A DNA stretch of 64,000 nucleotides. Origin: an uncultured virus (IMG/VR IMGVR_UViG_3300005437_000001) (taxonomy: Duplodnaviria > Heunggongvirae > Uroviricota > Caudoviricetes). Below are positions 1,825-64,000 of the stretch, in pieces (the first letter of the stretch is position 1; every line of letters begins with the position of its first letter). The notes beneath the pieces are model-generated. The model was given only the letters and a program-made list of their open reading frames with translations, made no database searches and had not been told where the DNA came from. The DNA is taken from IMG/VR virus record IMGVR_UViG_3300005437_000001. One strand, 5' to 3'. The position numbers and the translations under genes were made by a program.

Positions 1825-1825
1825 C

Positions 1826-8570: not shown

Positions 8571-8579
8571 GGAGTCCCG

Positions 8580-10442: not shown

Positions 10443-11294
10443 GTGACCGTCCAGGTCAACCAGGGTCAGACAGCCGATCTGATCGTGCAGTGGTACGCCT
10501 ACCCCAACGGCCCGCTGGCGGACGTGACCGGGCTGACGATCACGGTGAACAGCGCGGCCAGCGGCTCGGCCGTGTTCGGACCGACCTCCTCCGGAGTGAT
10601 CCACCAGGCCACCGGGCTGTACACCTTCCAGTGGGCGGTGTCGACCAGTCAGGCTTCGGGCGACTACATCGCCATCTGGAACGCGACTCTGGGCGGGTCG
10701 GCGGTCCAGACCAGCGAGATCGCCACCGTCCTGCCGTATGACAACTCGGTGTTCCTCACCTGGTGTGACATCACACTGCAGGAGGACCTGATCAACGGTC
10801 AGGGCAATGTGTCGGCCGTCAACCCGGTGACGTTCACTACCAACGTTACAGGTCAAACCGTGACCGCCCAGCAGGTGACCCTGGGCCAGCAGGTGCTCAA
10901 TCAATTCAGCAACTACACCCCCGAGTCGTCCGGGTTCAACATGAACCCGAACGACCTGCACCTGCTGCGCTACGCCATGGCGTACCAGGCGGTGTGGCAG
11001 AAGAGCAAGCCCGGCCTACTGCAACAGGGAAACTACAAGCAGCTGAGCCAGGACGGGCTGTCCGTCACGCTGAACGGCGACGAGGGGGTAGACCGGGCGC
11101 TGATGCTGGCGCCGCTGGCCAGCCGGTGCCTCAAGCAGCTGTCCTGGCAGAAGAGCCGCAGCCTGCGCGTGCGCACGCCGTTCATCGACGATCAGACGCC
11201 CCTGTCCTCCGACCCGGACGCCGAGGCCAACGACCTGTACGAGCGCTGGGTGGACATGTACAGCTTCGGCTACCGTGGAAGCTCGGTGCCGTAG
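10443..11294 (+). CDS. Head-to-tail adaptor with N-terminal Ig-like domain
   Basis: Beta-rich N-terminal half (GLYTFQW, GDYIAIW); C-terminal AMAYQAVW...SQDG...LAPLASRCL; position in the operon. Confidence 0.65.
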   Translation: MTVQVNQGQTADLIVQWYAYPNGPLADVTGLTITVNSAASGSAVFGPTSSGVIHQATGLYTFQWAVSTSQASGDYIAIWNATLGGSAVQTSEIATVLPYDNSVFLTWCDITLQEDLINGQGNVSAVNPVTFTTNVTGQTVTAQQVTLGQQVLNQFSNYTPESSGFNMNPNDLHLLRYAMAYQAVWQKSKPGLLQQGNYKQLSQDGLSVTLNGDEGVDRALMLAPLASRCLKQLSWQKSRSLRVRTPFIDDQTPLSSDPDAEANDLYERWVDMYSFGYRGSSVP

Positions 11295-25281: not shown

Positions 25282-25542
25282 TCAGTCGGAACCGGTGGGG
25301 GTGGCGGCGGGCGCCGCGAACATGGCGGCCTTCATGGCCTCCATCTGGGCGCGCAGCTCGGCGTTGTCCCGGGTCAACGCGTCCAATGCCGCTTCCAGGG
25401 TGGCGTTCTCGTACACCAGGGTACTGACCAGTTTGGAATTCTTCTGCTGGAGCAGCTCGGCCACCACGCCGGGGTCCAGCTGGACCTGCAGGGGCTGCGG
25501 TTGCTCCGCCTGGGTCGGCTTGGTTTCAGTCTCGGTCGTCAC
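25282..25542 (-). CDS. Small coiled-coil protein
   Basis: AAGGAG RBS; last gene of the reverse cassette. Confidence 0.65.
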   Translation of the reverse strand: MTTETETKPTQAEQPQPLQVQLDPGVVAELLQQKNSKLVSTLVYENATLEAALDALTRDNAELRAQMEAMKAAMFAAPAATPTGSD

Positions 25543-26399
25543 GAGGTCTGCTCCTTGGCGATGCGTCGGTACCTGTCGAGGATGTCGGTCTTGTGCACCT
25601 CGTCACGCTGCGGACTGAAGGTGTAGTGTGATACCAGGGCGTCGCCGACGATGTTGTTGATCTTGCCGACGATGGCGGGCCGGTGGACCGTGATCCAGTG
25701 CTCCTCCTCCGGGAAGTCGAGCACCCCTGGTGTCGGCAGGGTCATGAAGTCCTGGCCGTCGATCACGTGGCACGACACGCTGAACTGCTGGCGCGGCGCG
25801 AGCGGGTAGTCCTGATACAAGTAGGCTTTCTCCGGTTCGCCGTCCTCGATCCACCCTAGCAGCAGGTTGTGGATCTTGACGGCGAACAGGCCGTCGGCCC
25901 AGCCGACCGGGTCCATGCAGAACGGCTGCTGGACGATGCCGTACTCCTTGGGGATCACGCCCGCCTGCTGCATGTACCAGCTGACGATGGCATTGTTCCA
26001 CATCAGGGCGAAGCTGGCCAGGGTGCCCGGCTGCAGCAGCTTGGACCGCACCGTGTTCTCGACAGCGTCCTGGTGCACGTACACGATGTCGTCATCGAAC
26101 CGGAAGAACACCGCGTCCGGATCGGTCATGTACCGGTAGGCGTACCCGGTGTTGCGCTGCTTGGGACGCTGGCGCGGCAGTCCCGCCGGACGCTCCAGGA
26201 TCCGTATCCACTTGTGGGTCTGGGCCAGCCGGTACGCGTAGACCAGGTCGGACACCTGGCCGTCGTCCGTGTTCAGGTACAGCCACCACTCGTCGACCAG
26301 GCCGCGCTCATGGTCTCGGCGCAGGTACTCCAGCAGGATCGACACCGTGGTCTCCCGCCCGTACGGAGTCCAGGCGACGACCTTCTTGCCACCGATCAC
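25539..26399 (-). CDS. Glycosyltransferase, GT-A fold
   Basis: N-terminal TPYGR and FRFDDDIVY (DxD) motif. Confidence 0.75.
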   Translation of the reverse strand: MIGGKKVVAWTPYGRETTVSILLEYLRRDHERGLVDEWWLYLNTDDGQVSDLVYAYRLAQTHKWIRILERPAGLPRQRPKQRNTGYAYRYMTDPDAVFFRFDDDIVYVHQDAVENTVRSKLLQPGTLASFALMWNNAIVSWYMQQAGVIPKEYGIVQQPFCMDPVGWADGLFAVKIHNLLLGWIEDGEPEKAYLYQDYPLAPRQQFSVSCHVIDGQDFMTLPTPGVLDFPEEEHWITVHRPAIVGKINNIVGDALVSHYTFSPQRDEVHKTDILDRYRRIAKEQTS

Positions 26400-27394
26400 A
26401 GTGTGAACCCCTTGATTCTACCGAACAGTACGGACTCCCACAGGTGGGCGTACTTCTCGACGGTGTGTTCGGCCGCCTGCTGGCGGGCCGCCTCGCCCAT
26501 CTCCTCGCGCATGTCCGCGTCCGAGATCAGCATTCTGATATACTCGTGCCAGTCGGCTTCGGTCCTGGCGATGAACCCTGTGACCCCGTGCCGGACGAAC
26601 TGCACATAAGGGTCCGTATCTGAACAGATGATCGGGATTCCCAGGAACGCGGCCTCCAGGGCCTTGGTGGGGAACTTGGCGCCGTTGTACACGGTGTGCC
26701 GGTACGGCGCCACCCACACGTCGAACTCGATGGCCTCCAGGTACCGTTCGGTCTGCACCCACGACGTATGGCGCATGCCGGGTACGGTCAGCCGGGACCG
26801 GCGCATGTGCGCGTAAGGTATGCCGACCGTCTGCGCCACCCCCCCGTATTCCGATACCCTACTGAACGCGGACCACGCGATCGGCAGTTCGGGCAGGGTC
26901 GAGGACGATCCGACCCAGCCGACGACAGGCTTGGGGTTATCCGGACGGGGGCGCGACAGCAGCGATTCGGGCAGCCCGTTCGGGATGACCACCACACGGC
27001 TGCTGACCGAGCGGAACAGCTCGGCCAGCCGCTCGGTGGCCACGGTCACCACGCTGGCCGTGTAAGAGTTGCCCATCAGCCGGGCTCGCACGGTCCGGCG
27101 TGCGTACTCCTGGTAGGCCAGATAGTTGGACGGATCCATGTGGAAGTAGTCGTCGTCCGCGTCGAACACCGTGCGCCGCCGCTGGTCGAAACACCAGCGG
27201 GCCCACTGGGTCGTCGCTCCGTGGTTGTGCACCCGCTGGCCGACGACAGGCAGCGTGTCGTCGGCCAACTGCTCGTCGGTCATCTCCATGGACACCGAGA
27301 TCTCGTGCCCCCGGTCGCGCAGGGCCTGCGCGGGCAGCTGGCACCTGTACCAGGCGCAGCCTCCCTCGTCGGCGGCCCAGAAGAAGGCCTTCAC
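26396..27394 (-). CDS. Glycosyltransferase, GT-B fold (GT4-like)
   Basis: GCAWYR, VFDADDD, VVIPNG, VGWVGS, KALEAAFLGIPIICSD and HGVTGF. Confidence 0.88.
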   Translation of the reverse strand: MKAFFWAADEGGCAWYRCQLPAQALRDRGHEISVSMEMTDEQLADDTLPVVGQRVHNHGATTQWARWCFDQRRRTVFDADDDYFHMDPSNYLAYQEYARRTVRARLMGNSYTASVVTVATERLAELFRSVSSRVVVIPNGLPESLLSRPRPDNPKPVVGWVGSSSTLPELPIAWSAFSRVSEYGGVAQTVGIPYAHMRRSRLTVPGMRHTSWVQTERYLEAIEFDVWVAPYRHTVYNGAKFPTKALEAAFLGIPIICSDTDPYVQFVRHGVTGFIARTEADWHEYIRMLISDADMREEMGEAARQQAAEHTVEKYAHLWESVLFGRIKGFTL

Positions 27395-28395
27395 CGGGTC
27401 TTCAGCTCCCGCAGGTACTCGGGCAGCCAGTTGTCCGCGTACCACTTGGCCGTGTCGGCGATGCCGGTCTCCAGGGGGATCAGCTCCGCCGAGTCCATGC
27501 CGATAAGGTGCAAGGTGCTGTTGTCGGCGGTCACCCGGGCGTTCGGCGTCTCCCCCGGACGCATCGGCAGGTTGACGATCGCCGGTTCCGGCTGGGAGAA
27601 TCCCAGGTCCGTGGCCGCCCGCTGGACCTGCTGCGCCACGTACCGCACGGCCGTGTGATCGGACGGGCCGATCTCGACCACCTCGGGCACCACCCCGCCC
27701 GACGCCGCGTGCTCCAGCGACTTGACCAGCGCCCTGGCCACGTCGGCGACGTGGACGCAGTCGGACACCTGCATCCCATCGCCATAGACCTCAATCGGGG
27801 ACCCGGTCAGGGATCGTCCGATGAACGCGGGCATGATCTTGCGGACCTTGCCCGGACCGTACGGCGCCGCCATCAGCTGGCGCGGCCCGTAGGCGTTGAC
27901 CACCCGCACCTGGTTGATCCTGGTGCCCCGGTCGCGCCGGTACATGTGTCCGAGCGACTCGACACACGTCTTGGACGCCGAGTAGGGGTTGGACATTCCG
28001 GCGTTGCCGACGCAGATATTGACCATCGGAAGCCGGTACTGGGTCGCCGCCTCCATCACGTTCATCCCGGCGACCACGTTGGTCATCACGGCCGGACGCG
28101 GGTTGAACACGGTCTCCTGGGTCCCCAGGACGCTGGCCAGGTGGATGACGCCCTCGACGTGGGCCGCCAGCTCGACCACGGCCGTCTCATCCCGCGCGTC
28201 GCCCAACATGACGGGCACCATCAGGTTCTCATTGTGGTGGATCTTCATCCACTTCCTGCCGGAGGGATCGCCGCCGACGGACATGAAGCTGCGGGCTCGG
28301 TGGTCGAAGATGACCGGCTCGTGTCCCCGCCGGATCAGCTCGTCGACCACGTGGCCGCCGATGAAACCGGCACCGCCGGTAACGCCCACCTTCAT
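27391..28395 (-). CDS. NAD-dependent nucleotide-sugar epimerase/dehydratase
   Basis: TGGAGFIG, HLA, YSASK (YxxxK), NAYGPRQ and VYGDG.Q..D..HV.D. Confidence 0.92.
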   Translation of the reverse strand: MKVGVTGGAGFIGGHVVDELIRRGHEPVIFDHRARSFMSVGGDPSGRKWMKIHHNENLMVPVMLGDARDETAVVELAAHVEGVIHLASVLGTQETVFNPRPAVMTNVVAGMNVMEAATQYRLPMVNICVGNAGMSNPYSASKTCVESLGHMYRRDRGTRINQVRVVNAYGPRQLMAAPYGPGKVRKIMPAFIGRSLTGSPIEVYGDGMQVSDCVHVADVARALVKSLEHAASGGVVPEVVEIGPSDHTAVRYVAQQVQRAATDLGFSQPEPAIVNLPMRPGETPNARVTADNSTLHLIGMDSAELIPLETGIADTAKWYADNWLPEYLRELKTR

Positions 28396-47389: not shown

Positions 47390-47760
47390 CTGAGGTCAAA
47401 CCGGGTACGCCGCTGACCGACCGTGAGGCCCAGGTCCTGTACGCCGTGGCGGAACTGGGCAACAGCGCCGAGGCCGTCGGCCTGCGGCTGTACATGATGC
47501 CCAGCACGGTCAAGACCCACCTGCGGCGCGCCGCCATCCGGCTGGGTACCCAGAAGACCCGGCCGGGGCACGACGCACGCGGCACGACCACGGCCTGGAC
47601 CCTGGCCGAGGCCATCCGCCGGGGCTACATCGTGCTGGAGCCGCTGGGCCAGGGCCGGGTCGTGCGGGGCAGCACGGGTCTGGGCAGCATGAGCGTCCAG
47701 GCCCGCTGGGACAAGCGACAGCGTATCAACCAGTTGGCTATCGAGGGGCAGAGACGATGA
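47386..47760 (+). CDS. LuxR-type HTH regulator
   Basis: LTDREAQVL..VAE.G.S...VG.RLY...STVKTHL. Confidence 0.8.
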   Translation: MTEVKPGTPLTDREAQVLYAVAELGNSAEAVGLRLYMMPSTVKTHLRRAAIRLGTQKTRPGHDARGTTTAWTLAEAIRRGYIVLEPLGQGRVVRGSTGLGSMSVQARWDKRQRINQLAIEGQRR

Positions 47761-50006
47761 GCGGGACAACGGTTCAGTCGGACATGGTGGTGGGTGGGGT
47801 GGCGCTGCCGGACCTGCCGCCCGGGTGGCCGGTGTTGTTCGACACCGAGGGCTCCGGCCTGCACCCCGACGGCGACCCCGGTACCGACACCAACATGCAG
47901 AAGAGCAGTCCACCGGCCCGGGTCAGTGCGGCGAGCGTGGCGTGGATGGACCCCGACACGGGCGAGATCCACAGCCACGCCTGGCCGTTCGACCAGGGCC
48001 CCATGGTCGGCAAGCCGGGCCGGATCCGCCGTCCGAGGGACGGCGGGGGGTACCCGCTGCTGACCCAGGAGGATGTCGACAAGATCTTGTCGAAGTTCCG
48101 CGTCCCCGGGGACGCGGTACCGGCGCCGGGGGAGGACATGGTCGGCGAGGTGCCGGACCGGCCGATGACCTACGAGGAGGCCTGCCCCAACCTGGGGCTG
48201 GAACACTGGATCAACCTGCTGCGGTGGCTGCGGGCGCGCGACTACATCGTGATGCACAACGCCAAGCACGACCTGACCGTGGCCACGGTGGGCCCGCGCG
48301 AGGAGATCGCCCGGGACCAGTGGCTGCACAACCCCCGGCTGCGCGCCGAGTTCAGCCCGCAGGCCCAGCAGGCGATCGACCCGATCCTGTGGGGAGACGA
48401 CCCGCTCGGCCCCGTATTCGGGCTGGACATCGACAAGCACTGCCCCAATACCAAGCTGGCCGACACGATGCTGATCCAGGCGCTGCTGGATCCGCTGCAC
48501 CCGGTGGCCCTGAAGCGGACCGCCCGCCGGATCTGGGGCGAGGACAGCACCCGGGAGGAGGAGGAGCTGGCCGCCGCGCTCAAGAAACTGGGCGTCGGCC
48601 TGACCAAGCGGTACGACCTGATCCCCTGGCCGATCATCGGCCCATACGCGGCCCGGGACGCAGAGCTTGCCCTGATGCTGCTGTACCGCCAGATCGCCCG
48701 GATCGAGCAGGGCGACGCCCCGCCCGGGGCCTGGGACCAGATCGACAAGGACATCGACCTGATGCGGGTGCTGTATCGGATGCAGCGCCGGGGCATGAGC
48801 TACGACGCCAAGACCAGCATGCAGGCGGCGGCCGACCTCCAGGCCGAGATGGACAACATCGCCCGAGATCTGCCGTTCGACCCGGCCAAGGTCCAGGAGG
48901 TCGGCCGGTACTACTTCGGGGCCAAGGAGGACGGCGGGCGCGGGCTGACGCCCATCAAGGTCACCGACAAGCGCCGGGACCCGTGCGTGGACGAGGCCCA
49001 GATCCGGCTGCTGGTCCAGGACGGCGAGCCGTACGCGGCCGAGTACGACGACTGGTCGCACTGCAAGAGCGCGCTGGGCAAGTGGTACCGGGGCTGGGCG
49101 ATGCGGACCGGCCCGGACGGACGGCTGCGCACCGACTTCATGCAGACCGCCATCGAGTCGGACCGGCCCGGCGCCCCCAAGGGCGGGGCGATCTCCGGCC
49201 GCCTGGCCGTCTCCCGGGTCCAGCTGCAGGCTATCCCCCACTTCAATCAGCTGCCCGACGTGGTCAAGGACCGACCGGTCCGGGGCCTGATCGGCGCGCG
49301 GCCCGGCTACGCCTTGTGGGAGATGGACCTGCCCCAGGGCGAGGTCCGTATCGCGACGGTGGTGACCGGCTGCTCTGCCATGTGGGACGTGATCGACTCG
49401 GGCGAGGACCTGCACGGCGCCAACGCCAAGCGGATCTGGGGGATCCTGGAGACCGACCCCACCTTCCAGGACCTGCGGGGCGTCGGCAAGCGGGTCACAT
49501 TCGGCACCATGTACGGCGCTGGTATCGACACGCTGCGCGCCCAGATCCTGGAGTACACGGGCCTGGAGTACAGCCGCAGGGAGACGGCCGAGGCACGCGA
49601 CGCGTTCTACGCCCAGTTCCCCGAGTTCCGCACCGTGCCGTACCGGATCCAGTGCAAGGCCGACAAGGGGCTGGGCGGAGTCGGCTACGTCACCCTGATC
49701 GACGGGCGGCGCCGCTGGTTCGGTCCGGACGAGCACACGCATAAGGCGTTCAACGCGGTCATCCAGGGCGACCTGGCCCAGACCGGCAAGACCTGGATGA
49801 TCCAGGTCGAGCGGGAGCTGCCGGGCATCCAGGTGCTGGCCATCCACGACAGCATGGTGGTCGAGGTGCCGGACACCGACGCGGGCTACTCTCTCGCCCA
49901 GCAGGCGGCGGCCATCGGCACGGAGATCTACGAGCGCGACTACTCGGTCCGTGGCCGCAAGATGTCCTTCCCGATCGTCCCCGAGCGCTGGAAGGCCACC
50001 AAGTGA
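47757..50006 (+). CDS. Family A DNA polymerase with 3'-5' exonuclease (candidate DpoZ)
   Basis: Exo motifs FDTEG, HNAKHD and YAARDA; polymerase motifs SGRL, DLPQGEVR (A), RGVGKRVTFGTMYG (B) and IHDS (C). Confidence 0.92.
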   Translation: MSGTTVQSDMVVGGVALPDLPPGWPVLFDTEGSGLHPDGDPGTDTNMQKSSPPARVSAASVAWMDPDTGEIHSHAWPFDQGPMVGKPGRIRRPRDGGGYPLLTQEDVDKILSKFRVPGDAVPAPGEDMVGEVPDRPMTYEEACPNLGLEHWINLLRWLRARDYIVMHNAKHDLTVATVGPREEIARDQWLHNPRLRAEFSPQAQQAIDPILWGDDPLGPVFGLDIDKHCPNTKLADTMLIQALLDPLHPVALKRTARRIWGEDSTREEEELAAALKKLGVGLTKRYDLIPWPIIGPYAARDAELALMLLYRQIARIEQGDAPPGAWDQIDKDIDLMRVLYRMQRRGMSYDAKTSMQAAADLQAEMDNIARDLPFDPAKVQEVGRYYFGAKEDGGRGLTPIKVTDKRRDPCVDEAQIRLLVQDGEPYAAEYDDWSHCKSALGKWYRGWAMRTGPDGRLRTDFMQTAIESDRPGAPKGGAISGRLAVSRVQLQAIPHFNQLPDVVKDRPVRGLIGARPGYALWEMDLPQGEVRIATVVTGCSAMWDVIDSGEDLHGANAKRIWGILETDPTFQDLRGVGKRVTFGTMYGAGIDTLRAQILEYTGLEYSRRETAEARDAFYAQFPEFRTVPYRIQCKADKGLGGVGYVTLIDGRRRWFGPDEHTHKAFNAVIQGDLAQTGKTWMIQVERELPGIQVLAIHDSMVVEVPDTDAGYSLAQQAAAIGTEIYERDYSVRGRKMSFPIVPERWKATK

Positions 50007-51042: not shown

Positions 51043-51434
51043 GCTTCATCAACCCGGAAGACTACGCACCCGGCGCGCGGCCCCAGCGGGTGCAGATCGG
51101 GCGCAAGAATCCAGAGGGACTGGTCCTGATCGGAGAATTCGGCGGTCAGACTGCCGTGGCGGGGCTGGACTGGAACGGCGTACACGCGTTGATAGCGGAC
51201 CTGAATCAGGCACTGTGGGAGAGGGGAAGGTGGCTGCAGGATGAGCGGCGGCGCGCACAGACAGATCTTGACGGAGAGCAGTCCGGGAGGGGTGGTGCTG
51301 TTCCGTTCGGACCTGAGCGAGCAGCTGACCCTGGACTGGGACGAGGTGTTCAAGCTGGTGGGTCTGCTGGCTGACGAGTCGCGCAAGCGCAAGGATATGC
51401 TGGAGCGGGAGCTGGCCCGGTGGGTGAGGCAGGG

Positions 51435-51854
51435 ATGATGACCGTCACCGACCGGATGCTCAAGCAGATGGCCGATCATGCCGCCGACGAGTACCCCCGT
51501 GAGTGCTGCGGCGCGCTGGCCGGGCCGATCGGGTCGAGCACGGTCACCGAGATGGTGCGCTGCCGTAACGAGGCGGCCGACCCCCGATCGTTCTACGAGA
51601 TCGGCGCCGAGCGGCTGATCGGGCTGTACGGCGAGCTGGGCGCGCGCGGGCTGGAGCCGGTGGCCTGGTACCACAGCCACCCGTCCGGTCCGCCACTGCC
51701 CAGCCGTACCGACATCAACTACATGGCCGACCCCCGGGTCAGGTATCTGATCCTGGGCAAGGTCGACGACAGCATGGTGGCAACCTGCTGGCGCGTCAAC
51801 CCCATGACAGGCCAGCCGTACGAGGAGGAGGTCGACGTTGTCAGAACCGCGTGA
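51435..51854 (+). CDS. JAB/MPN+ (M67) metalloprotease
   Basis: YPRECCG and YHSHP...P.PS..D (JAMM motif). Confidence 0.9.
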   Translation: MMTVTDRMLKQMADHAADEYPRECCGALAGPIGSSTVTEMVRCRNEAADPRSFYEIGAERLIGLYGELGARGLEPVAWYHSHPSGPPLPSRTDINYMADPRVRYLILGKVDDSMVATCWRVNPMTGQPYEEEVDVVRTA

Positions 51855-52907: not shown

Positions 52908-53296
52908 TGCTGTGGCTCAGCGTGACGGTCCGTGCCAGTTCGTTCGGCGCGGGCGGCATGCTGCTGGTCCGCGAGGTGCAGATGGGGTTTCTGCCGGACC
53001 TGGGCGACGCGGACACGATGGAGCTGTACTCCCGCCCGGAGGGGTCCGGAGAGGGTCCGATGTGGGGGTTCAGGCGCCGATACTGGGACTTCGACGGTAC
53101 CTGCAACCTGGAGATGCAGCAGATGCACATCGACCCTCAGGGGCCGCTGCGCGACCACCTGGAGCGGCGCACGGTCGGTCCGCCCCGTCGCGACCGGGTC
53201 TGGTGGACCGACCAAGACGGCGACCCCGTTCCGACGCTGCTGGCCAGCGGGTGGCGAACCTACGAGGGATGGAAGGCGGAGCGGTGGCCAGGCTAG
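52892..53296 (+). CDS. Hypothetical protein
   Basis: Overlaps neighbours in operon fashion. Confidence 0.55.
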   Translation: MGGKVVLWLSVTVRASSFGAGGMLLVREVQMGFLPDLGDADTMELYSRPEGSGEGPMWGFRRRYWDFDGTCNLEMQQMHIDPQGPLRDHLERRTVGPPRRDRVWWTDQDGDPVPTLLASGWRTYEGWKAERWPG

Positions 53297-53850
53297 CCAG
53301 TCATGACTACACCGAGCTTCCCGGCACTTGGTGGAGCGTGGACCCGGGCGACGTTCACGTCGGGCTGGCCGAGTGGCGCGGAGCGGTGTGCGTGGCGGCT
53401 ACCGAGACCTCGCCCACCCTGTTCGAGGACCGGCTCATGGAGGTGTGTCGCGGGACACCTAGAGCGGTTCAATGGGCCGAGGCGGTGGGAGGGGTGGCGC
53501 TGCCGGACCTGGTGATCATCGAGCGGTTCGCCCTGCGGGGCGAGTTCATGGCCCAGCAGCAGGGCAGCGAGTTCCTGACCAGCCAGATGATCGGGTCCAC
53601 CCGGTTCATCTGCCGCTGGTTCGGCAAGCCGCTGGTCATCCAGACTCCCGACCAGCACAAGCTGGTACTGAAGCGCGACCCGTGGCGGGACTGGCCGCAG
53701 CGCAGGTTCAAGTCCTACGGACACGGCCCGCACGCCAAGTCGGCCGAGCTGCACGGGTACTTCTTCATAGAGAGCGTCCTGCGCAGGCAGGGGGCGGCGG
53801 CACTGGAGGCGTGGAAGCGGACGATACGTCCGGCGCCCCGCACCGGATAG
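53284..53850 (+). CDS. RuvC-like (RNase H fold) resolvase
   Basis: SVDPG..HVGLA, DLVIIE.F and SQMIG; C-terminal H...A..H. Confidence 0.7.
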   Translation: MARLASHDYTELPGTWWSVDPGDVHVGLAEWRGAVCVAATETSPTLFEDRLMEVCRGTPRAVQWAEAVGGVALPDLVIIERFALRGEFMAQQQGSEFLTSQMIGSTRFICRWFGKPLVIQTPDQHKLVLKRDPWRDWPQRRFKSYGHGPHAKSAELHGYFFIESVLRRQGAAALEAWKRTIRPAPRTG

Positions 53851-53875
53851 GCGGGAGTGCGCAGGACGCGCGCTC

Positions 53876-53905
53876 TTGACCGGCGGCCAAGCAGGGTGGG
53901 ATACT
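53876..53905 (+). promoter_or_regulatory. Promoter and operator of the purZ module
   Basis: TTGACC-18-GATACT; operator TTGAC-CGGCG-GCCAA. Confidence 0.6.
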
Positions 53906-53946
53906 ACTGCCCAGATGGCCGGACAGCCAACCAAAGGGAGGACATC

Positions 53947-55098
53947 TTGCAAGGCAAGCTGTATGTGGTGGTCGGCGGACAGTTCGGAAGTGAGGGCAAG
54001 GGCGCGGTGGCCGGTCGGCTGGCCGCAGACCTGGAGAACCGGAGCCACACCGTGGTCGGCGTCCGAGTCGGCGGACCCAACGCCGGGCACACGGTGCTGG
54101 GCCACTGTCCGGCCGACTGCGACGAGCAGGACCACCAGCCGACCGGGACGCACCCGTGCGGCAGGCACCCGTGGCGGCTGCGGCAGGTCCCGGTGTCGGC
54201 GGTCACGGCGCCGCTGTCGGACCTGGTGATCGCCGAGGGCAGCGAGATCGATCCCGACGTGCTGGTGCACGAGGTCCGGCAGCTGGACAGCGCCGGGTAC
54301 AAGGTGACCGAGCGGCTGCTGATCGACGCCACGACCACCGTGATCGAGCCGCACCACCGGCAGGCCGAGCGGCTGGTGCTGCGCGACCGGATCGGGTCGA
54401 CGGCCAAGGGTATCGGTGCGGCGCGGTCGGCCCGGACGCTGCGCGAAGCCCACCTGTGGGGCAAGGTTCACTCGCAGTACGACCTGGGCTGCACCTACGG
54501 GACGGCCCGGATGCTGGACGGACAGCTCAGGTCGCCGAACGGCGCGGTGGTGATCGAGGGCACCCAGGGGTACGGGCTGGGCCAGCATGCCGGGTACTAC
54601 CCGTTCTGTACGTCGGGCGACTGCCGGGCGACCGACTTCCTGGCCCAGGCCGGGGTCGGTCTGTGGCCGTGGCGCGGCAGCCGGATCCGTGTCCTGGTCT
54701 GCATGCGCCCGTACCCGATCCGCGTCGCCGGGAGCAGCGGCCCGCTGAAGGGGGAGACCAGCTGGGAGACGCTGGGCCTGCCGCAGGAGCTGACCACGGT
54801 CACCCAGAAGGTCCGCCGGGTCGGAAGATGGGACGCCGAGCTGGCCGCCGAGGCGTTCAAGGCCAACGGCGCGCCCAGCGACAGCGTCCTGCTGGCCGCC
54901 ACCATGTTCGACCAGATCGAGTCGGAGGTGGCCGGATCGAATGCCACCGGGTCCAGTATCTTCCCCCGGCTCGACGTGCTGTCGTACACGGCCCGGTTCA
55001 AACTGGCCCGGATGGCGCAGGACTGCCTGGACTCGACCGTGGCGTACGTGGGCACCGGGCCGGACACGGCCATGGTGGACGAGAGGATCTACGAGTGA
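53947..55098 (+). CDS. purZ: 2-aminoadenylosuccinate (dSMP) synthetase, PurZ0-type
   Basis: GGQFGSEGKG (Ser in place of the PurA Asp), GPNAGH, GSTAKGIG, EGTQGYGL, PIRVAGSSG, TTVT.K.RRVG and GTGP; TTG start after GGGAGG. Confidence 0.88.
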   Translation: MQGKLYVVVGGQFGSEGKGAVAGRLAADLENRSHTVVGVRVGGPNAGHTVLGHCPADCDEQDHQPTGTHPCGRHPWRLRQVPVSAVTAPLSDLVIAEGSEIDPDVLVHEVRQLDSAGYKVTERLLIDATTTVIEPHHRQAERLVLRDRIGSTAKGIGAARSARTLREAHLWGKVHSQYDLGCTYGTARMLDGQLRSPNGAVVIEGTQGYGLGQHAGYYPFCTSGDCRATDFLAQAGVGLWPWRGSRIRVLVCMRPYPIRVAGSSGPLKGETSWETLGLPQELTTVTQKVRRVGRWDAELAAEAFKANGAPSDSVLLAATMFDQIESEVAGSNATGSSIFPRLDVLSYTARFKLARMAQDCLDSTVAYVGTGPDTAMVDERIYE

Positions 55099-55772
55099 CC
55101 GGCAACGGAGAGCACCGCAGGCCCAAGGTCCAGGGCACGATGGACCAGACCGCCGTGCTGCCCGCCGTCTTCGACGATGGGCAGCGGGAGCCGGGCACCG
55201 ATCCGGAGCCGACCGGGGCGCTGGCGGTCGGCGGAGTGGTCGATCCGGCCCGCGCCCCCCGGATCTTCGACCCGGTGGCACCGGGTGCGCCGATCCCCAC
55301 TCCGCAGCAGGCTGCCCTGCTGCCGCCGCGCGTGACCGAGGTCAGGGTCAATGAGGCCGACGCCCGTCCGAGCCCGCCGCGCGAGTGGACGGGGGTGGCA
55401 ACCGGGCTGCTGCACGCCGAGCAGGTGCACGAGCTGCAGGGCCGCGAGACCGCCGGGCCCGCACCCGACCTGGAGGCGTGGTGGGTGTCGATCGCCCGGG
55501 GCGACGCACACGCGGCGGCTATCAAGGCGGCGGCCTACGGCAGCAACAGCCTGATGGAGGAGGGGCGCAAGGTCGCCAAGCTGCAGGGCCGCGAGGTCAC
55601 CGACGACGAAGCGCTGGAGCTGGGCTGCTGGAACTACATCACCGGCAAGTCCGGACGGTGGAGCGACGCCGTCCTGCGCGGCGAGCGGGTCGGCGACGAT
55701 ACGCTGCTGGACATCGTGACCTACGCCATGATGGCTCGGCGGATCCGAGCGGCCGGAAACTGGCCGGGTTGA
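55095..55772 (+). CDS. Putative MazG-like / nucleotide-modification-associated protein
   Basis: C-terminal helical domain K...YG...GK..R...DTLLDIVTYAMM; coupled to purZ. Confidence 0.6.
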   Translation: MTGNGEHRRPKVQGTMDQTAVLPAVFDDGQREPGTDPEPTGALAVGGVVDPARAPRIFDPVAPGAPIPTPQQAALLPPRVTEVRVNEADARPSPPREWTGVATGLLHAEQVHELQGRETAGPAPDLEAWWVSIARGDAHAAAIKAAAYGSNSLMEEGRKVAKLQGREVTDDEALELGCWNYITGKSGRWSDAVLRGERVGDDTLLDIVTYAMMARRIRAAGNWPG

Positions 55773-56068
55773 GCAGGCCCACCGTGGCCGAGCTGCAGTC
55801 GTCGGCGGCCCAGCTGAGCCAGCAGCTGAACTGGCTCAGCAGCAGGAACCGCGCCCGGCTCAGGACGGCCTATGTCCAGCTGCTGATGGACCACCACACC
55901 CGGCGGGGTACCGATCCGGCCATCCTCGTATCGGGTGTGGTGATCTGGCTGGCGACCGGCGGCGACAGGTCCGGCGACCCGGTCAACCAGCTGTGGTACG
56001 CCGTCGACCTGGTGGCCAACCAGGTCAAGAGCCGGTACTACGACCTGTCGGAGGTGACAGAACATTGA
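55769..56068 (+). CDS. Hypothetical protein
   Basis: TTGA-coupled within the purZ operon. Confidence 0.5.
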   Translation: MSRPTVAELQSSAAQLSQQLNWLSSRNRARLRTAYVQLLMDHHTRRGTDPAILVSGVVIWLATGGDRSGDPVNQLWYAVDLVANQVKSRYYDLSEVTEH

Positions 56069-56970
56069 TGGTGTATCTGGCCAGGCCGATCGATCTGGCC
56101 GACGGGCTGCCCAACTGGCTGTACGACGCGGCCAGCATGGTCGAGGACGAGCTGGTGCTGGGGCAGCACGACGTGTACCGCCCCGCCCACGCGTTCCGGG
56201 CCGGTGAGGTGAGCGCGGCCATCCAGCATGTGAACGAGTTCGCGCTTGCGTCGGCCCGAGGGGGGGTGGCGCTGTTGCCTGCCGGGGTGCCGACCCTGGG
56301 GACGCCGGACGAGATCGCCCAGCTGGTCCGGTCGGCCCGGCCGTCCCTGATCGTGACCGACATCGAGGTGTCGGCCGTCCTGCGGTCCTGGGAGCGGTGG
56401 ACCCACGTCAAGGTGGTGTACCCGGACGTGGGCGAGATCAAGGCGGGCGCCGCGTGGATGCTGGAGCAGCTGGCCCTGCTGGAGCGATTCGACGGCGACC
56501 GCCGCCCGCTGGTGTTCGAGCCGGTGGCTACCGACACGCTGACCCAGGTGTCCGAGGTCGGCGGGACGCTGCGGTCCCTGCTGCCGGTGCGCGGGTACCC
56601 GGACGACGCCGGGCTGGACCTGATCGTGAGCACCGACACCGAGGTACCGGCGGGCGCGTTCGTCGACGTGCCCAGCGGAGTCAAGGTGGACCTGCCGCAC
56701 GGGACGTGGGCGATGATCACCGGTCGCTCGTCGTCGCTGCGGCGCCGGAACCTGCTGGTCAGCACCGGAGTCATCGACGCCGGGTGGACCGGCGAGCTGT
56801 TCGCCGGGGTCAAGAACCTAGGCGATACGGACACCGTGCTGGCGGCGGGCGACCGGATCGCCCAGCTGATCCTGCTGCCCGCGCCGGTCGTGGACTACGT
56901 GCCGCGCTGGGGGCAGGTCCGCACCGACAAGTCGCGCGGCGTCAACGGATTCGGGTCGAGCGGTGCCTGA
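56068..56970 (+). CDS. Nucleoside deoxyribosyltransferase-like domain fused to trimeric dUTPase domain
   Basis: N-terminal VYLARPID...TLGTPDEI; C-terminal DAGLDL, GRSS, GVIDAGWTGE, DRIAQL and RG.NGFGSSG. Confidence 0.8.
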   Translation: MVYLARPIDLADGLPNWLYDAASMVEDELVLGQHDVYRPAHAFRAGEVSAAIQHVNEFALASARGGVALLPAGVPTLGTPDEIAQLVRSARPSLIVTDIEVSAVLRSWERWTHVKVVYPDVGEIKAGAAWMLEQLALLERFDGDRRPLVFEPVATDTLTQVSEVGGTLRSLLPVRGYPDDAGLDLIVSTDTEVPAGAFVDVPSGVKVDLPHGTWAMITGRSSSLRRRNLLVSTGVIDAGWTGELFAGVKNLGDTDTVLAAGDRIAQLILLPAPVVDYVPRWGQVRTDKSRGVNGFGSSGA

Positions 56971-57175
56971 CCAGACTCCGCCTGCGGGCCCCGGACCTCA
57001 GGGTCCGGGGCCCGACCCGTCGCGTCGGCCACGGCGCGACGAGCTGTGGCGGCGCGACCGGGTGATGAGCGTGATAAGATGTCGGGCATGTGCGGCCAAG
57101 GGCCGCACCACCGCGATGTGGGACGTAGTCGACGTACACATATTACTGTGTCTGATCTGCGACCGTGTGGTCTGA
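56963..57175 (+). CDS. Small CxxC...CxxC protein
   Basis: CRAC...CLIC. Confidence 0.45.
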   Translation: MPDQTPPAGPGPQGPGPDPSRRPRRDELWRRDRVMSVIRCRACAAKGRTTAMWDVVDVHILLCLICDRVV

Positions 57176-57188
57176 AAAACATCGGCCT

Positions 57189-57226
57189 TTGACAGCTTGA
57201 CAAGAGTAGTCTACGGGTGGTTTAAT
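57189..57226 (+). promoter_or_regulatory. Strong promoter and operator
   Basis: TTGACA-18-TTTAAT; operator TTGAC-AGCTT-GACAA. Confidence 0.75.
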
Positions 57227-57278
57227 TTTCTTAGTGGGGCCGACAGGCGGCCCCGAGAGAAACCCGAGGAGACCCGAG

Positions 57279-57821
57279 ATGGCCGCCAAGACGATCACCG
57301 CCCAGACCCCTGAGGCCCAGGCCGAGAAGCCCTGCCTGTGCGGCGCGTACGAGCTGGAGATCGGTAGCGACGCCGAGACGATGGAGTACGCCGACACCGG
57401 CTGCCGGTCGCACACCACCCGCGACTTCGCCCCCGGCCACGACGCGAAGCTGAAGGCCCTGCTGATCCGGGCGGGCGTCGAGGACCGCAGCGTGCGGGTC
57501 AACACGGGCGGAGTGGTCCGCGTGACCACGGCCGAGGACGCCGCCGCCGCGTTCCCGTTCGCCTACATGGTGACCAACGGCATCAAGAACGGCAGGGAGA
57601 AGGCGGCGGCCCGCGCCGCGCGCAAGGCCGAGCGGGACGCCCGCAAGGCCGACGCCCCGGCCAAGACCCCCCGCCCCCGCAAGGCCAAGGTGACCGAGGC
57701 CACCATCAAGATCGGGCGCTGGGTGTACGCGGCCAAGATCGACGCCAGTGGCAACGCGACCTATGAGACCTCCGGCGGCGAGGTGCGCACCTCTCCGGCG
57801 GACAAGTACAAGATCGTGTGA
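57279..57821 (+). CDS. Highly expressed Zn-binding hypothetical protein
   Basis: CLCG...C...T.R.FAPGHDAKLK; extreme codon bias; followed by a GC hairpin. Confidence 0.75.
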   Translation: MAAKTITAQTPEAQAEKPCLCGAYELEIGSDAETMEYADTGCRSHTTRDFAPGHDAKLKALLIRAGVEDRSVRVNTGGVVRVTTAEDAAAAFPFAYMVTNGIKNGREKAAARAARKAERDARKADAPAKTPRPRKAKVTEATIKIGRWVYAAKIDASGNATYETSGGEVRTSPADKYKIV

Positions 57822-62437: not shown

Positions 62438-63010
62438 ATGGACGAGATCATACCCGGAGACGAGAGAGAGTGGGTCGCCGCCGCACAGGCGGGGGACCCT
62501 GACGCGTTCGGCCGGATCTACAGCGCCACTGTCGGGCGGGTGCGCGGGTACGTGCGGGTGCGGTGTCGGACCCCGGCCGACGCCGAGGACACGGTACAGG
62601 ACGTTTACCTCAAGGCGTGGCGCAGTATCGGTTCGTATTCGCATGAGCGGCCGATCGTCGCGTGGCTGGTGACGATAGCACACAACCGCCTGGCCGACCA
62701 GGCCCGGGTGGGCGCGCGCCGCCGGGCGATCGCGGACGTGGCGGTGGGGCTGGAGGGGGTCGAAGTCGAGCTGGTGTCGGACCGGTGTCCGGGGCCGGAG
62801 GATAGGATGCTGATGCGCGAGGAGGCGTCGGCCGCCGTGTCGCTGCTGCGGGGGATACCGCTGCGGCGGGCGGCCGTAGTGGCGATGACGGCCGACGGAT
62901 GGTCGACCGAGGAGATAGCGCAGGCGGTGGGGTGCAGCGAGAGCGGAGTCAGGGGTCTGAGATTCAGGGCGGTCGAGGCGGTGCGCGCCCGTGTCCAGAC
63001 GGTGGTGTGA
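62438..63010 (+). CDS. ECF-type RNA polymerase sigma factor
   Basis: GD.DAF..IY, DAED.VQDVYLKAW and AWL.TIAHN; region 4 EIA..VG.S...VR. Confidence 0.9.
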   Translation: MDEIIPGDEREWVAAAQAGDPDAFGRIYSATVGRVRGYVRVRCRTPADAEDTVQDVYLKAWRSIGSYSHERPIVAWLVTIAHNRLADQARVGARRRAIADVAVGLEGVEVELVSDRCPGPEDRMLMREEASAAVSLLRGIPLRRAAVVAMTADGWSTEEIAQAVGCSESGVRGLRFRAVEAVRARVQTVV

Positions 63011-63239
63011 GCAGACCGGCAAGTACAAGTACCCGACCGAGCTGGAGGCCCAGCTGGCGCTGCTGGACATACACTTCAGGCTGCGCAACGAGGATCAGAA
63101 GATCGAGCGGGTGACCTGTGCGACGCATCCGTGCGATCACTGCGGCCTGTGGCATCTGACCGGCAATAAGCCGGACGGCAAGTACCGGAGGGGATTGGGC
63201 GATGCCATCCGCCCGGACTGGCGTCCGGGCGGGGGGTAA
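62991..63239 (+). CDS. Small Zn-binding protein
   Basis: C..TGK..Y....A...C.HCG.WHLT. Confidence 0.7.
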   Translation: MSRRWCEQTGKYKYPTELEAQLALLDIHFRLRNEDQKIERVTCATHPCDHCGLWHLTGNKPDGKYRRGLGDAIRPDWRPGGG

Positions 63240-63296
63240 ACTGGGGACATGATCACTACCGATTGCACCCCGCGCCTCACAGCGGAGCTGTGAGGC

Positions 63297-63596
63297 GTGG
63301 ACACTGGTGACAGCCTGGCCTACGACTCGTACCTGGGCGGGATGAACCCGGGGTCCAGTTACAGCGGCCAGCCGAACATCAAACCGACCGACCGCGCCGA
63401 CATGGCGCTGCCGAAAGTGGGCGCGAGCGTGCGCCACGCCAAGAGCGGCGAGAGCGGCACGGTTGTCGGGCACGTGCGCCACGGCTACTCGGCCGAGCGG
63501 CTGCCCGTGGTGAAGTGGAACGGCCAGCCGGGCGGTCCCGGGGACGCTCCCCCGTCGCAGGGGTACTCGCTCGACAGTTTGACAAACCCGACATGA
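63297..63596 (+). CDS. SH3/KOW-like family paralog 3
   Basis: LPKVGASVRHAKSGESGTVVGH..HGYS...PVV.W.G. Confidence 0.65.
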   Translation: MDTGDSLAYDSYLGGMNPGSSYSGQPNIKPTDRADMALPKVGASVRHAKSGESGTVVGHVRHGYSAERLPVVKWNGQPGGPGDAPPSQGYSLDSLTNPT

Positions 63597-64000
63597 CAGC
63601 GAGTCAAATAGTAGTGTCCTGGTAGCAGTACTCGGTCCGGTGTATACTGGCAGGACCAGCTTCAGGCTGTGGGGAAGCAGCCGGGGCCGGAGCGGCCCAG
63701 AGTGCGCGCATGCCGGATGCCGACCTGTGGCCGGGACGACGGTCAGGAGACTGGTCGAGGCGGGACAGCCCGCAAGTCGAGACCCCCGGTGGCCGAAAGC
63801 ACGGGGGCCTCGGCGCTATAATGACGGAGTGAGATACCCCTTTGACGAGTGGCTGGACGGCCGGGAGTGGACCCTGGTCCGGCCGCGCGACTTCACCGGT
63901 CCGGCCGAGACGATGGTCCACAGGCTCAGGAGTGCCGCCGCCGCCCGGGGCCGCACTCTGACCGCCGACATCCAGCCCGGCGGCAAGTTCATCACGATAA

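What the first reader, a model, noticed from the sequence alone, without database searches (positions are those of the whole stretch)
53947..56970. Z-genome (2-aminoadenine) operon with PurZ0 but no recognisable DatZ
Seen: a PurA-fold enzyme with Ser in place of the catalytic Asp (GSEGKG), plus RPYPIRVAG and MFDQ, which from memory match the GTP-using PurZ0 of actinophages. It is translationally coupled to a MazG-like ORF, a small ORF and an NDT-dUTPase fusion, under its own operator-bearing promoter. Established: Z-phages combine PurZ with dATP/dGTP hydrolases (DatZ, MazZ) and/or a selective PolA (DpoZ). I see no HD-domain DatZ in this window. Inference: this phage replaces A with Z and uses a different enzyme set to supply dGMP and deplete dATP.
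Basis: partly seen in the sequence, partly recalled or inferred. Interest (0 to 1): 0.8.

Follow-up and report, generated by a model that had tools for sequence, protein, structure and literature searches.

The report
Actinophage PurZ0 2-aminoadenine DNA gene module
This phage carries the already published gene set that actinobacterial phages use to replace adenine by 2-aminoadenine in their DNA, so the missing DatZ is ordinary, but one of the four genes belongs to an unnamed family that nearly always sits beside PurZ0.

Summary
Window 53947-56970 has four translationally coupled + strand genes. They encode a PurZ0-type succino-aminodeoxyadenylate synthetase, a 225-aa protein with a conserved C-terminal helical domain, a 99-aa lineage-specific protein, and an NDT-like/dUTPase fusion.

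PurZ0 assignment is solid. The best solved structure is 7VF6 (E 2.8e-71). In a tree the protein sits on the PurZ0 side of a 100/100 split. It has the GSEGKG Ser-for-Asp loop and keeps the Asp of TMFDQ.

The fusion keeps all five residues shown by mutagenesis to matter in Ghobes DmtZ, plus a dUTPase domain. No DatZ/HD, MazG, DUF550, DUF5664 or PurB gene was found in the roughly 76-kb genome.

The "alternative route" is not new. Poubanne et al. (NAR 2026, PMC12884076) showed that PurZ0 phages use DutZ and DmtZ, usually fused, in place of DatZ/MazZ. This is a new member of a known kind. Other windows of this scan reached the same comparison.

One part is not in the papers I could read. The second gene's domain matches no Pfam or PHROG model. 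It lies directly after purZ0 in 77 of 78 IMG/VR loci, and DUF5664 takes that slot in the other one. It is fused to PurZ0 in 7 of 120 homologues. "MazG-like" was not confirmed. No chemistry was measured.

The parts
47757..50006 (+). Family A DNA polymerase, DpoZ-1-like. It lies outside the finding's coordinates but belongs to the system.
   Evidence: PF00476 E 1.7e-27. It is 30% identical over 758 columns to the phage Wayne polymerase (E 2e-76). By genus count, 136 of the 148 phage records that match at E<=1e-20 are PurZ0 phages.
53774..53869 (.). Perfect 12-bp inverted repeat (arms 53774-53785 and 53858-53869) spanning the end of the upstream gene. The right arm lies just upstream of the -35 hexamer, which starts at 53876.
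   Evidence: As RNA, 53765-53880 folds at -58.8 kcal/mol, z -3.0. 1 of 300 shuffles reach 12 bp, but 9 of 255 genome windows do. Its role is unknown.
53876..53905 (+). Promoter-like site TTGACC-18 nt-GATACT with a TG extension.
   Evidence: it is the only match in 53200-57400, against 0.1 expected from shuffles. This is a consensus match only.
53947..55098 (+). purZ0: GTP-type N6-succino-2-amino-2'-deoxyadenylate synthetase, 383 aa.
   Evidence: It carries a clade-specific CPxxC...H...HPW insertion at residues 52-75.
55095..55772 (+). ORF2, 225 aa. The N-terminal ~120 residues are Pro-rich and variable. Residues ~124-225 (nt 55464-55769) form the conserved PurZ0-associated helical domain.
55769..56068 (+). 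ORF3, 99 aa, a lineage-specific small protein.
   Evidence: GC3 is 0.91. It has no phage-database match. Homologues of 32-35% identity occur only in the three closest IMG/VR relatives. In two of them the homologous stretch lies in the same open frame as the ORF2-type domain.
56068..56970 (+). dmtZ-dutZ fusion, 300 aa. The NDT-like DmtZ domain covers about nt 56068-56520 and the dUTPase-fold DutZ domain about nt 56581-56964.

Best explanation
The window is most of a ~76-kb actinophage genome, and 53947-56970 is its 2-aminoadenine (Z) nucleotide module of the PurZ0 type.

1. The DutZ domain hydrolyses dATP and dGTP to dAMP and dGMP. This removes the competitor of dZTP and feeds the pathway.
2. 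The fused DmtZ domain cleaves dAMP to adenine and deoxyribose 5-phosphate. It may also move that sugar phosphate onto free Z base.
3. PurZ0 condenses dGMP with aspartate, most likely with GTP as phosphate donor.
4. The phage has no PurB, so host PurB and host kinases finish dZTP.
5. The DpoZ-1-like PolA 4 kb upstream incorporates dZTP.

ORF2's helical domain is a fourth, near-universal partner of PurZ0. My best guess (about 45%) is a nucleotide-handling enzyme that fills the slot held by MazG, DUF550 or DUF5664 pyrophosphohydrolases in other Z phages and supplies dGMP to PurZ0.

Shown here: gene identities, signature residues, synteny, and the absence of DatZ, MazG, DUF5664 and PurB. Inferred only: every activity, and the presence of Z in the DNA.
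For: PurZ0:
- The best solved relative is 7VF6 at E 2.8e-71. P. horikoshii PurA scores 8.5e-33, phiVC8 PurZ 2e-25 and S-2L PurZ 2.1e-20. The paper names 7VF6 as PurZ0 of phage Archimedes.
- Of 204 phage records matching by tblastn, actinophage ones are 40-54% identical and proteobacterial PurZ ones 25-33%.
- In a 31-row ML tree the PurZ/PurZ0 split has 100/100 support. The window lies on the PurZ0 side, in an 11-row clade that is otherwise all metagenomic (100/99).
- Signatures: GGQFGSEGKG, against D[LM]QFGSTGKG in PurZ; the Asp of TMFDQ is kept, against NFxNY in PurZ; the PurZ insertion after PIRVAG is absent.

DmtZ-DutZ:
- Y6, D12, P57, N77 and E103 (Ghobes numbering) are invariant in the 5-sequence alignment that includes the window. 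The paper found these residues critical by mutagenesis.
- PF00692 E 1.9e-23. The protein is 41% identical over its whole length to Galactica gp67.
- 110 phage records match over at least 80% of its length.

Published frame: all 98 PurZ0 genomes have dutZ, 85 have dmtZ, and 77 of those 85 are fused. The activities are in section 20.

No DatZ, MazG, DUF5664 or PurB was found: with positive controls.

ORF2 domain:
- It lies directly downstream of purZ0 in 77 of 78 non-self IMG/VR loci. The one exception has DUF5664 there.
- The order PurZ0, domain, DmtZ, DutZ holds in 61 of 61 loci that have all four.
- It occurs in 31 phage records, exactly the non-Arthrobacter PurZ0 genera.
- 7 of the 120 best PurZ0 homologues carry it as a C-terminal fusion, and so does P0063.
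- In PurZ phages the gene after purZ is a MazG/PRA-PH protein (ZP6) or DUF5664-DUF550 (DMU1). In Wayne it is DUF5664.
Against: - No nucleoside analysis and no enzyme assay exists for this phage or its closest relatives. The nearest assayed PurZ0-phage enzymes come from phages whose PurZ0 is only 41-46% identical.
- This PurZ0 clade has a 24-residue Cys/His insertion that is absent from the solved and assayed enzymes. Its effect is unknown.
- GTP use is read from one conserved Asp. The NAR paper's own sentence assigns ATP to PurZ0 and GTP to PurZ. That is opposite to the preprint's account and to my recollection of Tong et al. 2023, which I could not read.
- For ORF2, no test links it to any pyrophosphohydrolase. 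Pfam and PHROGs gave nothing. hhalign against Wayne DUF5664 gave E 0.45 and against ZP6 MazG E 0.18. Foldseek against the PDB had a best E of 1.4.
- Ghobes has an ORF2-type gene, yet its DutZ alone fully hydrolysed dATP and dGTP in vitro. A second pyrophosphohydrolase is therefore not obviously needed.
Confidence: 0.85

Rival explanations
1. ORF2's domain is not an enzyme. It is a non-catalytic subunit or regulator that binds PurZ0, for stabilisation, oligomerisation or allosteric nucleotide sensing. The rest of the module works as in the best explanation.
For: Fusion to the C-terminus of PurZ0 recurs: 7 of 120 homologues plus P0063. The domain is small and all-helical, about 100 aa in four helices, with pLDDT 87.5. 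It has no detectable catalytic-family match. The Ghobes DutZ already covers dATP and dGTP hydrolysis.
Against: Eight polar residues are invariant or nearly so in 76 sequences (K45, Y49, E76, K86, R89, D103, D107, Y111). That is more typical of a ligand or metal site than of a pure interface. The same slot is filled by true pyrophosphohydrolases in other Z phages. Binding could not be tested.
Confidence: 0.3
2. The PurA-like gene is an ordinary auxiliary adenylosuccinate synthetase (IMP to AMP) and the phage DNA is canonical. The dUTPase fusion merely sanitises dUTP.
For: The fold and most substrate-site motifs are shared with PurA. Wayne's fusion enzyme still favours dUTP by kcat.
Against: The catalytic Asp is replaced by Ser. 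According to the paper, that holds for 100% of the 147 phage PurZ-group sequences, while Asp13 is 99% conserved in true PurA. The protein nests inside the PurZ0 clade. The DmtZ catalytic residues are intact. The polymerase is of the type found almost only in PurZ0 phages.
Confidence: 0.04
3. The module is active but gives only partial A-to-Z replacement, or it serves mainly to drain host dATP and dGTP pools (a take-over or anti-defence role) rather than to build a fully substituted genome.
For: The phage lacks its own PurB, whereas 23 of 78 related loci encode one. It also lacks DUF5664. No chemistry is available.
Against: Ghobes and Wayne also show no PurB in the regions I fetched, and the paper treats them as Z-DNA phages. 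The complete PurZ0, DmtZ-DutZ and DpoZ-1-like set is present.
Confidence: 0.08

Closest known systems
PurZ0 / DutZ / DmtZ (+DpoZ-1) Z-DNA system of actinophages: Gordonia phages Ghobes and Archimedes, Arthrobacter phage Wayne (Tong et al. 2023, recalled and not readable here; Poubanne et al. NAR 2026, PMC12884076, sections read)
   Same: The gene order is the same: polymerase ... purZ0, small protein(s), dmtZ/dutZ. PurZ0 has the same Ser-for-Asp loop and retained Asp. DmtZ and DutZ are fused as in Wayne, with all five critical DmtZ residues. DatZ and MazZ are absent.
   Different: PurZ0 is only 41-46% identical to the proteins of those phages. It belongs to a separate clade, otherwise all metagenomic, with a CPxxC...H...HPW insertion. 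The genome is ~76 kb rather than 43-45 kb. The protein after purZ0 is the unnamed helical-domain protein (as in Ghobes gp51) and not Wayne's DUF5664-1. A lineage-specific ORF3 is added.
Hiyaavirus Streptomyces phages (Galactica, Hiyaa, Keanu, Spocter)
   Same: These are the closest named phages. PurZ0 is 50-54% identical, PolA 36-38%, and the DmtZ-DutZ fusion 41-43%. They share the same Cys-rich PurZ0 insertion and an ORF2-type domain 57% identical over 100 aa. Their genome size is similar, 81-83 kb.
   Different: Galactica encodes a PurB-like lyase and this phage does not. There is no nucleotide-level similarity (megablast found no match). The N-terminal part of the ORF2-type protein differs, and Galactica has no ORF3 homologue.
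PurZ / DatZ / MazZ (or DUF5664-DUF550) / DpoZ-2 system of phiVC8, S-2L and SH-Ab 15497-like phages
   Same: The overall logic is the same: remove dATP, supply dGMP, make dSMP with a PurA paralogue, and use a selective PolA.
   Different: The synthetase subfamily differs (100/100 split), and the Asp of the TMxD motif is Asn in PurZ. The HD-domain DatZ and MazG-type MazZ of that system are absent here.
DUF6378 (PF19905) / Nmad1-DUF1599 (PF07659) phage helical domains, of unknown function
   Same: After its own family, these are the nearest structural neighbours of the ORF2 domain in BFVD: 17 DUF6378 and 4 Nmad1 rows among ranks 8-50. The protein language model search points the same way. The conserved residues follow in the same order with near-identical spacing: K/R-x3-Y ... 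E ... K-x2-R ... D-x3-D-x3-Y.
   Different: This is not significant by sequence. hhalign gave E 0.063 and probability 0.9%. The PF19905 model finds nothing in five PurZ0 phage records at E<=10. Of 76 family members, only 1 touches PF19905, at E 0.066.

Membership tests
PurZ0 (GTP-type PurZ subfamily) | Adenylosuccinate synthetase fold | tested here: met
   PF00709 E 4.2e-30. 7VF6 aligns over residues 5-332.
PurZ0 (GTP-type PurZ subfamily) | Catalytic Asp13 (E. coli PurA numbering) replaced by Ser | tested here: met
   The loop is GQFGSEGKG. The criterion comes from PMC12884076 section 24.
PurZ0 (GTP-type PurZ subfamily) | Groups with PurZ0, not PurZ, in phylogeny | tested here: met
   The split has 100/100 support in a 31-row tree that holds 7 named PurZ0 and 5 PurZ sequences. 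No PurA outgroup was included.
PurZ0 (GTP-type PurZ subfamily) | GTP rather than ATP as phosphate donor | not testable with these tools
   The only proxy is the Asp of TMFDQ. It is kept as in P. horikoshii PurA (TMLDK) and in all 26 PurZ0-side rows, and it is Asn in all 5 PurZ rows. The role of that Asp in guanine binding is recalled from the PurA literature.
PurZ0 (GTP-type PurZ subfamily) | dGMP + Asp gives dSMP | not testable with these tools
   This needs an enzyme assay.
DmtZ (NDT-superfamily dAMP hydrolase/transferase) | Homology to Ghobes/Wayne DmtZ, with Tyr6 and nucleophile Glu103 plus Asp12, Pro57 and Asn77 | tested here: met
   All five residues are invariant in alignment A2. The residue list comes from the paper's section 23. 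Pfam's NDT model does not reach the window protein. It reaches Galactica's at 3.1e-4.
DutZ (dATP/dGTP-hydrolysing dUTPase clade) | Trimeric dUTPase fold, and closest to the Dut proteins of PurZ0 phages | tested here: met
   PF00692 E 1.9e-23. PurZ0-phage proteins score 1e-25 to 5e-51, against 1e-6 to 3e-13 for other phage dUTPases. No tree was built.
DutZ (dATP/dGTP-hydrolysing dUTPase clade) | dATP and dGTP accepted as substrates | not testable with these tools
   This needs an enzyme assay.
DatZ (HD-domain dATP triphosphohydrolase) | A YfbR-like/HD_3 domain protein encoded by the phage | tested here: not met
   No such hit appeared among the 100 ORFs scanned. tblastn with VP2 DatZ had a best E of 0.38. 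The controls hit. The genome is judged whole only from one overlapping IMG/VR record.
MazG / MazZ / DUF550 / DUF5664 all-alpha NTP pyrophosphohydrolases (for ORF2) | A profile match or fold match to the family | tested here: inconclusive
   There was no Pfam hit. hhalign gave E 0.45 against Wayne DUF5664 and E 0.18 against ZP6 MazG. iMazG 2Q73 matches only at Z 5.1, rmsd 3.4, 54 residues, which is within the noise for helical models.
DUF6378 / Nmad1 (for ORF2) | A profile match to PF19905 or PF07659 | tested here: inconclusive
   The structural and motif-level resemblance is consistent, but the sequence statistics fall below significance.
DpoZ-1 (Z-selective PolA of PurZ0 phages) | A family A polymerase closest to those of PurZ0 phages | tested here: met
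   Z-over-A selectivity is not testable here.

The most novel reading that the evidence does not exclude
The C-terminal helical domain of ORF2 defines an unnamed protein family. It has 748 clusters at 50% identity and no Pfam or PHROG model. It would be a fourth core component of the PurZ0 pathway. It is encoded directly after purZ0 in essentially all PurZ0 phages except the Arthrobacter ones, it is repeatedly fused to PurZ0, and DUF5664-1 replaces it at the same position. It would be either a new kind of dNTP/dNDP-hydrolysing enzyme that channels dGMP into PurZ0, or an obligatory PurZ0 subunit. In the papers I could read, Pfam-based surveys and the biochemical work do not mention it.
Probability: 0.5. 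Interest if true: 0.6.

Novelty: new member of a known kind. Interest (0 to 1): 0.4.

Why it matters
As submitted, the finding repeats what was published in 2023-2026: PurZ0 phages do without DatZ because DutZ and DmtZ do that job. Its value is as one more, fairly divergent, large-genome member from a clade that is otherwise all metagenomic.

The useful by-product is the ORF2-type domain. If it takes part in dZTP synthesis, the published PurZ0 pathway is incomplete. Attempts to transplant that pathway for Z-DNA or XNA production would then be missing a part. Pfam-based association studies cannot see this family, because it has no model.

Tried and rejected
- Megablast of 53800-57000 against phages found no match, so comparison had to be made at protein level.
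- Assigning ORF2 led nowhere by these routes: Pfam down to E 10; PHROGs; all 76 family members against Pfam; a profile against PDB sequences (0 hits at E<=10); Foldseek against the PDB (best E 1.4); VIA-align over 48,161 chains (best Z 6.7, only a two-helix hairpin aligned); and VIA-align over Foldseek's list (best Z 6.0; iMazG at Z 5.1, rmsd 3.4, 54 residues aligned).
- hhalign of the family profile gave nothing usable: E 0.45 against Wayne DUF5664, E 0.18 against ZP6 MazG, and E 0.063 against a 10-sequence DUF6378 alignment.
- The PF19905 model found nothing in G001 or in four PurZ0 phage records.
- I asked for a complex prediction of PurZ0 with the ORF2 domain.
- ORF3 has no phage-database match and no Pfam or PHROG hit.
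- The window's own assembly is not held. Completeness therefore rests on IMG/VR record G001, which bridges the window's end to its start.
- Tong et al. 2023 is not held. The one NAR 2026 supplement held as text (4,281 characters) does not mention the ORF2-type gene. Figures and other supplements, which I could not see, may show it.
- I rejected the 'operator' reading. The inverted repeat is real, but repeats of that length are not rare in this genome.
- Searches for print mentions of the domain: 'PurZ0'/'Z-genome', 'DUF6378'/'DUF1599'/'Nmad1', 'Nmad-1...' and 'Ghobes'+'aminoadenine'. None described it.
Full report
**What the window is.** The window is 65-72% GC throughout. It reads as a tailed-phage genome. 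It has an SPP1-type portal at 127-1824, a scaffold protein, a tail tube protein, and a leftward glycosyltransferase/epimerase pair. The replication block has a PD-(D/E)XK nuclease, an AAA_24 protein, a primase-polymerase, a DEAD/Helicase_C_2 helicase and a family A polymerase at 47757-50006. The window's own assembly is not held. An IMG/VR record, G001 (42,127 bp), carries a PurZ-like protein identical to the window's. Its stretch over the module is 99.98% identical to the window, and its stretches at the window's two ends are 100% identical. It runs from window position 64000 through 12,350 further bases into window position 1. The genome is therefore about 76.35 kb, which agrees with a 76,491-bp contig reported for the same proteins.

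**The observation.**
- purZ0 starts at TTG 53947, 6 nt after AAAGGGAGG, and ends at 55098.
- ORF2 (55095-55772) overlaps it by GTGA. ORF3 (55769-56068) overlaps ORF2 by TTGA. The last gene (56068-56970) overlaps ORF3 by TGATG.
- All four ORFs have GC3 of 0.89-0.94, with the frame pattern of real genes.
- One sigma-70-like match (TTGACC, 18 nt, GATACT) lies in the 96-bp gap upstream, against 0.1 expected.
- The only 'operator' candidate is a perfect 12-bp inverted repeat. One arm lies in the end of the upstream gene and the other just before the -35. It was reached by 1 of 300 shuffles, but 9 of 255 same-sized windows of this genome hold one as long. I do not accept the operator claim.

**PurZ0.**
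- Pfam gives PF00709. PHROGs gives phrog_1211 '2-aminooxy adenylosuccinate synthetase' at 2.4e-76.
- Against PDB sequences the best match is 7VF6 (E 2.8e-71). After it come P. horikoshii PurA (8.5e-33), phiVC8 PurZ (2e-25) and S-2L PurZ (2.1e-20). PMC12884076 names 7VF6 as PurZ0 of Gordonia phage Archimedes.
- tblastn finds 204 phage records in two bands. Actinophages are 40-54% identical (E 1e-58 to 3e-98) and proteobacterial PurZ phages are 25-33%.
- I built an ML tree of 31 rows: the window, 7 named PurZ0, 5 PurZ and 18 metagenomic homologues, chosen by me from 120 listed plus P0063. No PurA outgroup was included. It separates PurZ from the rest at 100/100. The window falls in an 11-row clade that is otherwise all metagenomic (100/99), with a nearest neighbour at 63% identity.
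- Three signatures separate the groups, and the window has the PurZ0 state of each. The loop is GGQ[FY]GSE[GA]KG, against D[LM]QFGSTGKG in PurZ. The Asp in [TS]MxD is kept, against NFxNY. The PurZ insertion after PIRV[AG] is absent.
- The kept Asp aligns with the Asp of TMLDK in the archaeal GTP-dependent PurA. By recalled PurA biochemistry this residue reads the guanine, so GTP use is likely.
- The sources disagree on this point. The NAR paper's sentence assigns ATP to PurZ0 and GTP to PurZ. The preprint describes ATP/dATP use as the derived state of PurZ, as I recall from Tong et al. 2023.

**DmtZ-DutZ.**
- The 300-aa product has a C-terminal dUTPase domain (PF00692; phrog_135).
- Its N-terminal half aligns with Ghobes DmtZ, the Wayne fusion, Galactica gp67 and Archimedes gp53. 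Y6, D12, P57, N77 and E103 are invariant. The paper found that changing these residues abolished or altered activity.
- Full-length matches occur in 110 phage records.
- The paper shows that Ghobes DutZ converts dATP and dGTP to dNMPs. The Wayne fusion turns dATP mainly into adenine. DmtZ hydrolyses dAMP and transfers deoxyribose 5-phosphate to Z base.
- It also reports dutZ in all 98 PurZ0 genomes and dmtZ in 85, fused in 77 of those.
- It contrasts DutZ/DmtZ/DUF5664-1 in PurZ0 phages with DatZ/MazZ/DUF550 in PurZ phages.

**Absences.**
- Pfam scans of 100 ORFs gave no HD, YfbR-like, MazG, DUF550, DUF5664 or lyase domain.
- I ran tblastn of VP2 DatZ, ZP6 MazG, Wayne DUF5664, Galactica PurB and three DMU1 proteins against the window plus the closing 12 kb. 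Nothing scored better than E 0.38.
- The same Pfam library does recognise DatZ in VP2 and DMU1, MazG in ZP6, and DUF5664-DUF550 in DMU1.

**Polymerase.** The PolA is 30% identical to Wayne's polymerase over its length. Of the 148 phage records matching at E<=1e-20, 136 belong to the PurZ0 genera. This fits the paper's DpoZ-1 group.

**ORF2 distribution.** This gene has no Pfam or PHROG hit.
- Its last ~100 residues are 57% identical to the end of Galactica gp66 and 47% to Ghobes gp51.
- tblastn finds this domain in 31 phage records: Microbacterium 18, Gordonia 6, Streptomyces 5, Curtobacterium 1 and Micrococcus 1. For the first three genera the counts equal those of the PurZ0 search.
- In the six records whose annotation I opened, the gene lies directly after purZ0.
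- In Wayne the same slot holds DUF5664 (PF18909, 3.5e-32).
- A full HMMER search of 1.84 billion representatives finds 748 clusters at E<=1e-3 and 423 at E<=1e-10.
- The 80 best of the 545 IMG/VR stretches related to PurZ0 were kept as loci, and 78 of them are non-self. Of these 78, 77 encode the domain just downstream of purZ0, with a median gap of 51 nt. The remaining one, a 43,357-bp record, has DUF5664 there.
- The order PurZ0, domain, DmtZ, DutZ holds in 61 of 61 loci that have all four.
- DutZ is found in 70 of the 78 loci. Seven of the eight misses have less than 1.81 kb of downstream DNA. DmtZ is found in 67 and PurB in 23.
- None of the 78 loci is a fusion. However, 7 of the 120 best PurZ0 homologues carry the domain at their C-terminus (E 4e-42 to 1.4e-51), and so does P0063.

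**ORF2 fold and relatives.**
- An AlphaFold2 model built from 76 sequences has pLDDT 87.5 and pTM 0.75. It shows four main helices.
- Searches against solved structures give nothing above noise.
- Against predicted viral structures, ranks 1-7 are the family itself. Of ranks 8-50, 17 rows are labelled DUF6378 and 4 'nucleotide modification associated domain' (E 0.04-0.8).
- The protein-language-model search also points to clusters partly labelled DUF1599 (10-14% of members).
- hhalign against a DUF6378 alignment is not significant (E 0.063). Still, it lines up the same conserved positions: the family's K45, Y49, E76, K86, R89, D103, D107 and Y111 against R15, Y19, E47, K56, R59, D70, D74 and Y78.
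- I rate remote kinship to DUF6378/Nmad1 as likely but unproven. 'MazG-like' stays a guess, backed only by position.

**ORF3.** Homologues (32-35% identity, E 3e-10 to 3e-14) occur only in three 74-77-kb IMG/VR contigs, which are the closest relatives. In two of them the homologous stretch lies in the same open frame as the ORF2-type domain. ORF3 is therefore best seen as a detachable C-terminal module of the ORF2 protein in this lineage.

**Literature and earlier notes.**
- The NAR 2026 main text never mentions a further conserved gene. 'Hypothetical' and 'unknown' have 0 occurrences, and the only 'uncharacterized' is generic.
- Its one held supplement is silent on this.
- The metaGPA preprint works with Pfam domains, so it cannot see a family without a model.
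- Earlier notes of this scan on other genomes name the same paper as the closest known system. None concerns this domain.

**Verdict.** This is a real, intact PurZ0-type Z-DNA module and a new member of a published kind. The missing DatZ is ordinary for this kind. The open question worth a bench test is the PurZ0-associated helical domain.

Noticed in passing
window 54100-54171 (PurZ0 residues 52-75): PurZ0 carries a Cys/His-rich insertion, GHCPADC...H...C..HPW. It is shared by Galactica and by at least 90% of 72 aligned homologues (C54, P55, C58, H74 and P75 are nearly invariant). It is absent from Archimedes (7VF6), Ghobes, Wayne, the Microbacterium, Micrococcus and Curtobacterium phages, and all PurZ. 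It may be a small metal-binding knuckle.
   Followed up: partly
PMC12884076, section 24: [quoted passage not shown] This conflicts with its own introduction (PurZ uses ATP) and with the preprint 10.1101/2025.10.22.683976. It is probably a slip.
   Followed up: partly
L024 5705-6442 and L101 5794-6552: In two of the three closest relatives, the ORF2-type domain and the ORF3-like stretch lie in one open frame. In the window they are two ORFs, offset by one frame and coupled by TTGA.
   Followed up: partly
IMG/VR loci L045, L062, L068-L096: 23 of 78 PurZ0 loci encode a PurB-like lyase. It often sits between the ORF2-type gene and dmtZ. This phage has none.
   Followed up: partly
window 51420-51854; L004 10218-10799 (G001 21218-21799, minus strand): The phage encodes a prokaryotic JAB/MPN deubiquitinase-like protein (PF14464, 1.3e-22). 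Beyond the window's end it also encodes a Multiubiquitin-domain protein (PF14452, 7.1e-10). Together these hint at a ubiquitin-like conjugation or anti-defence function.
   Followed up: no
window 25539-28395, minus strand: A leftward block between the tail genes and the replication genes holds a GT1-family glycosyltransferase and an NAD-dependent epimerase/dehydratase, next to an unassigned 286-aa ORF.
   Followed up: no
window 62438-63010: This ORF encodes a sigma-70 family (ECF-like) sigma factor, with regions 2 and 4.
   Followed up: no
window 53293-53850: The gene just upstream of the module matches only phrog_5202 (unknown function, E 1.8e-10). A 116-nt stretch across its end folds unusually well as RNA (z -3.0).
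   Followed up: partly
window 1-10506 and 62857-64000 against G001: IMG/VR record G001 joins the window's right end to its left end through 12,350 bp. That stretch holds a GDSL lipase-like gene, a VIT-family membrane protein and a 556-aa ORF with no Pfam hit. The genome assembles as circular or circularly permuted.
   Followed up: partly
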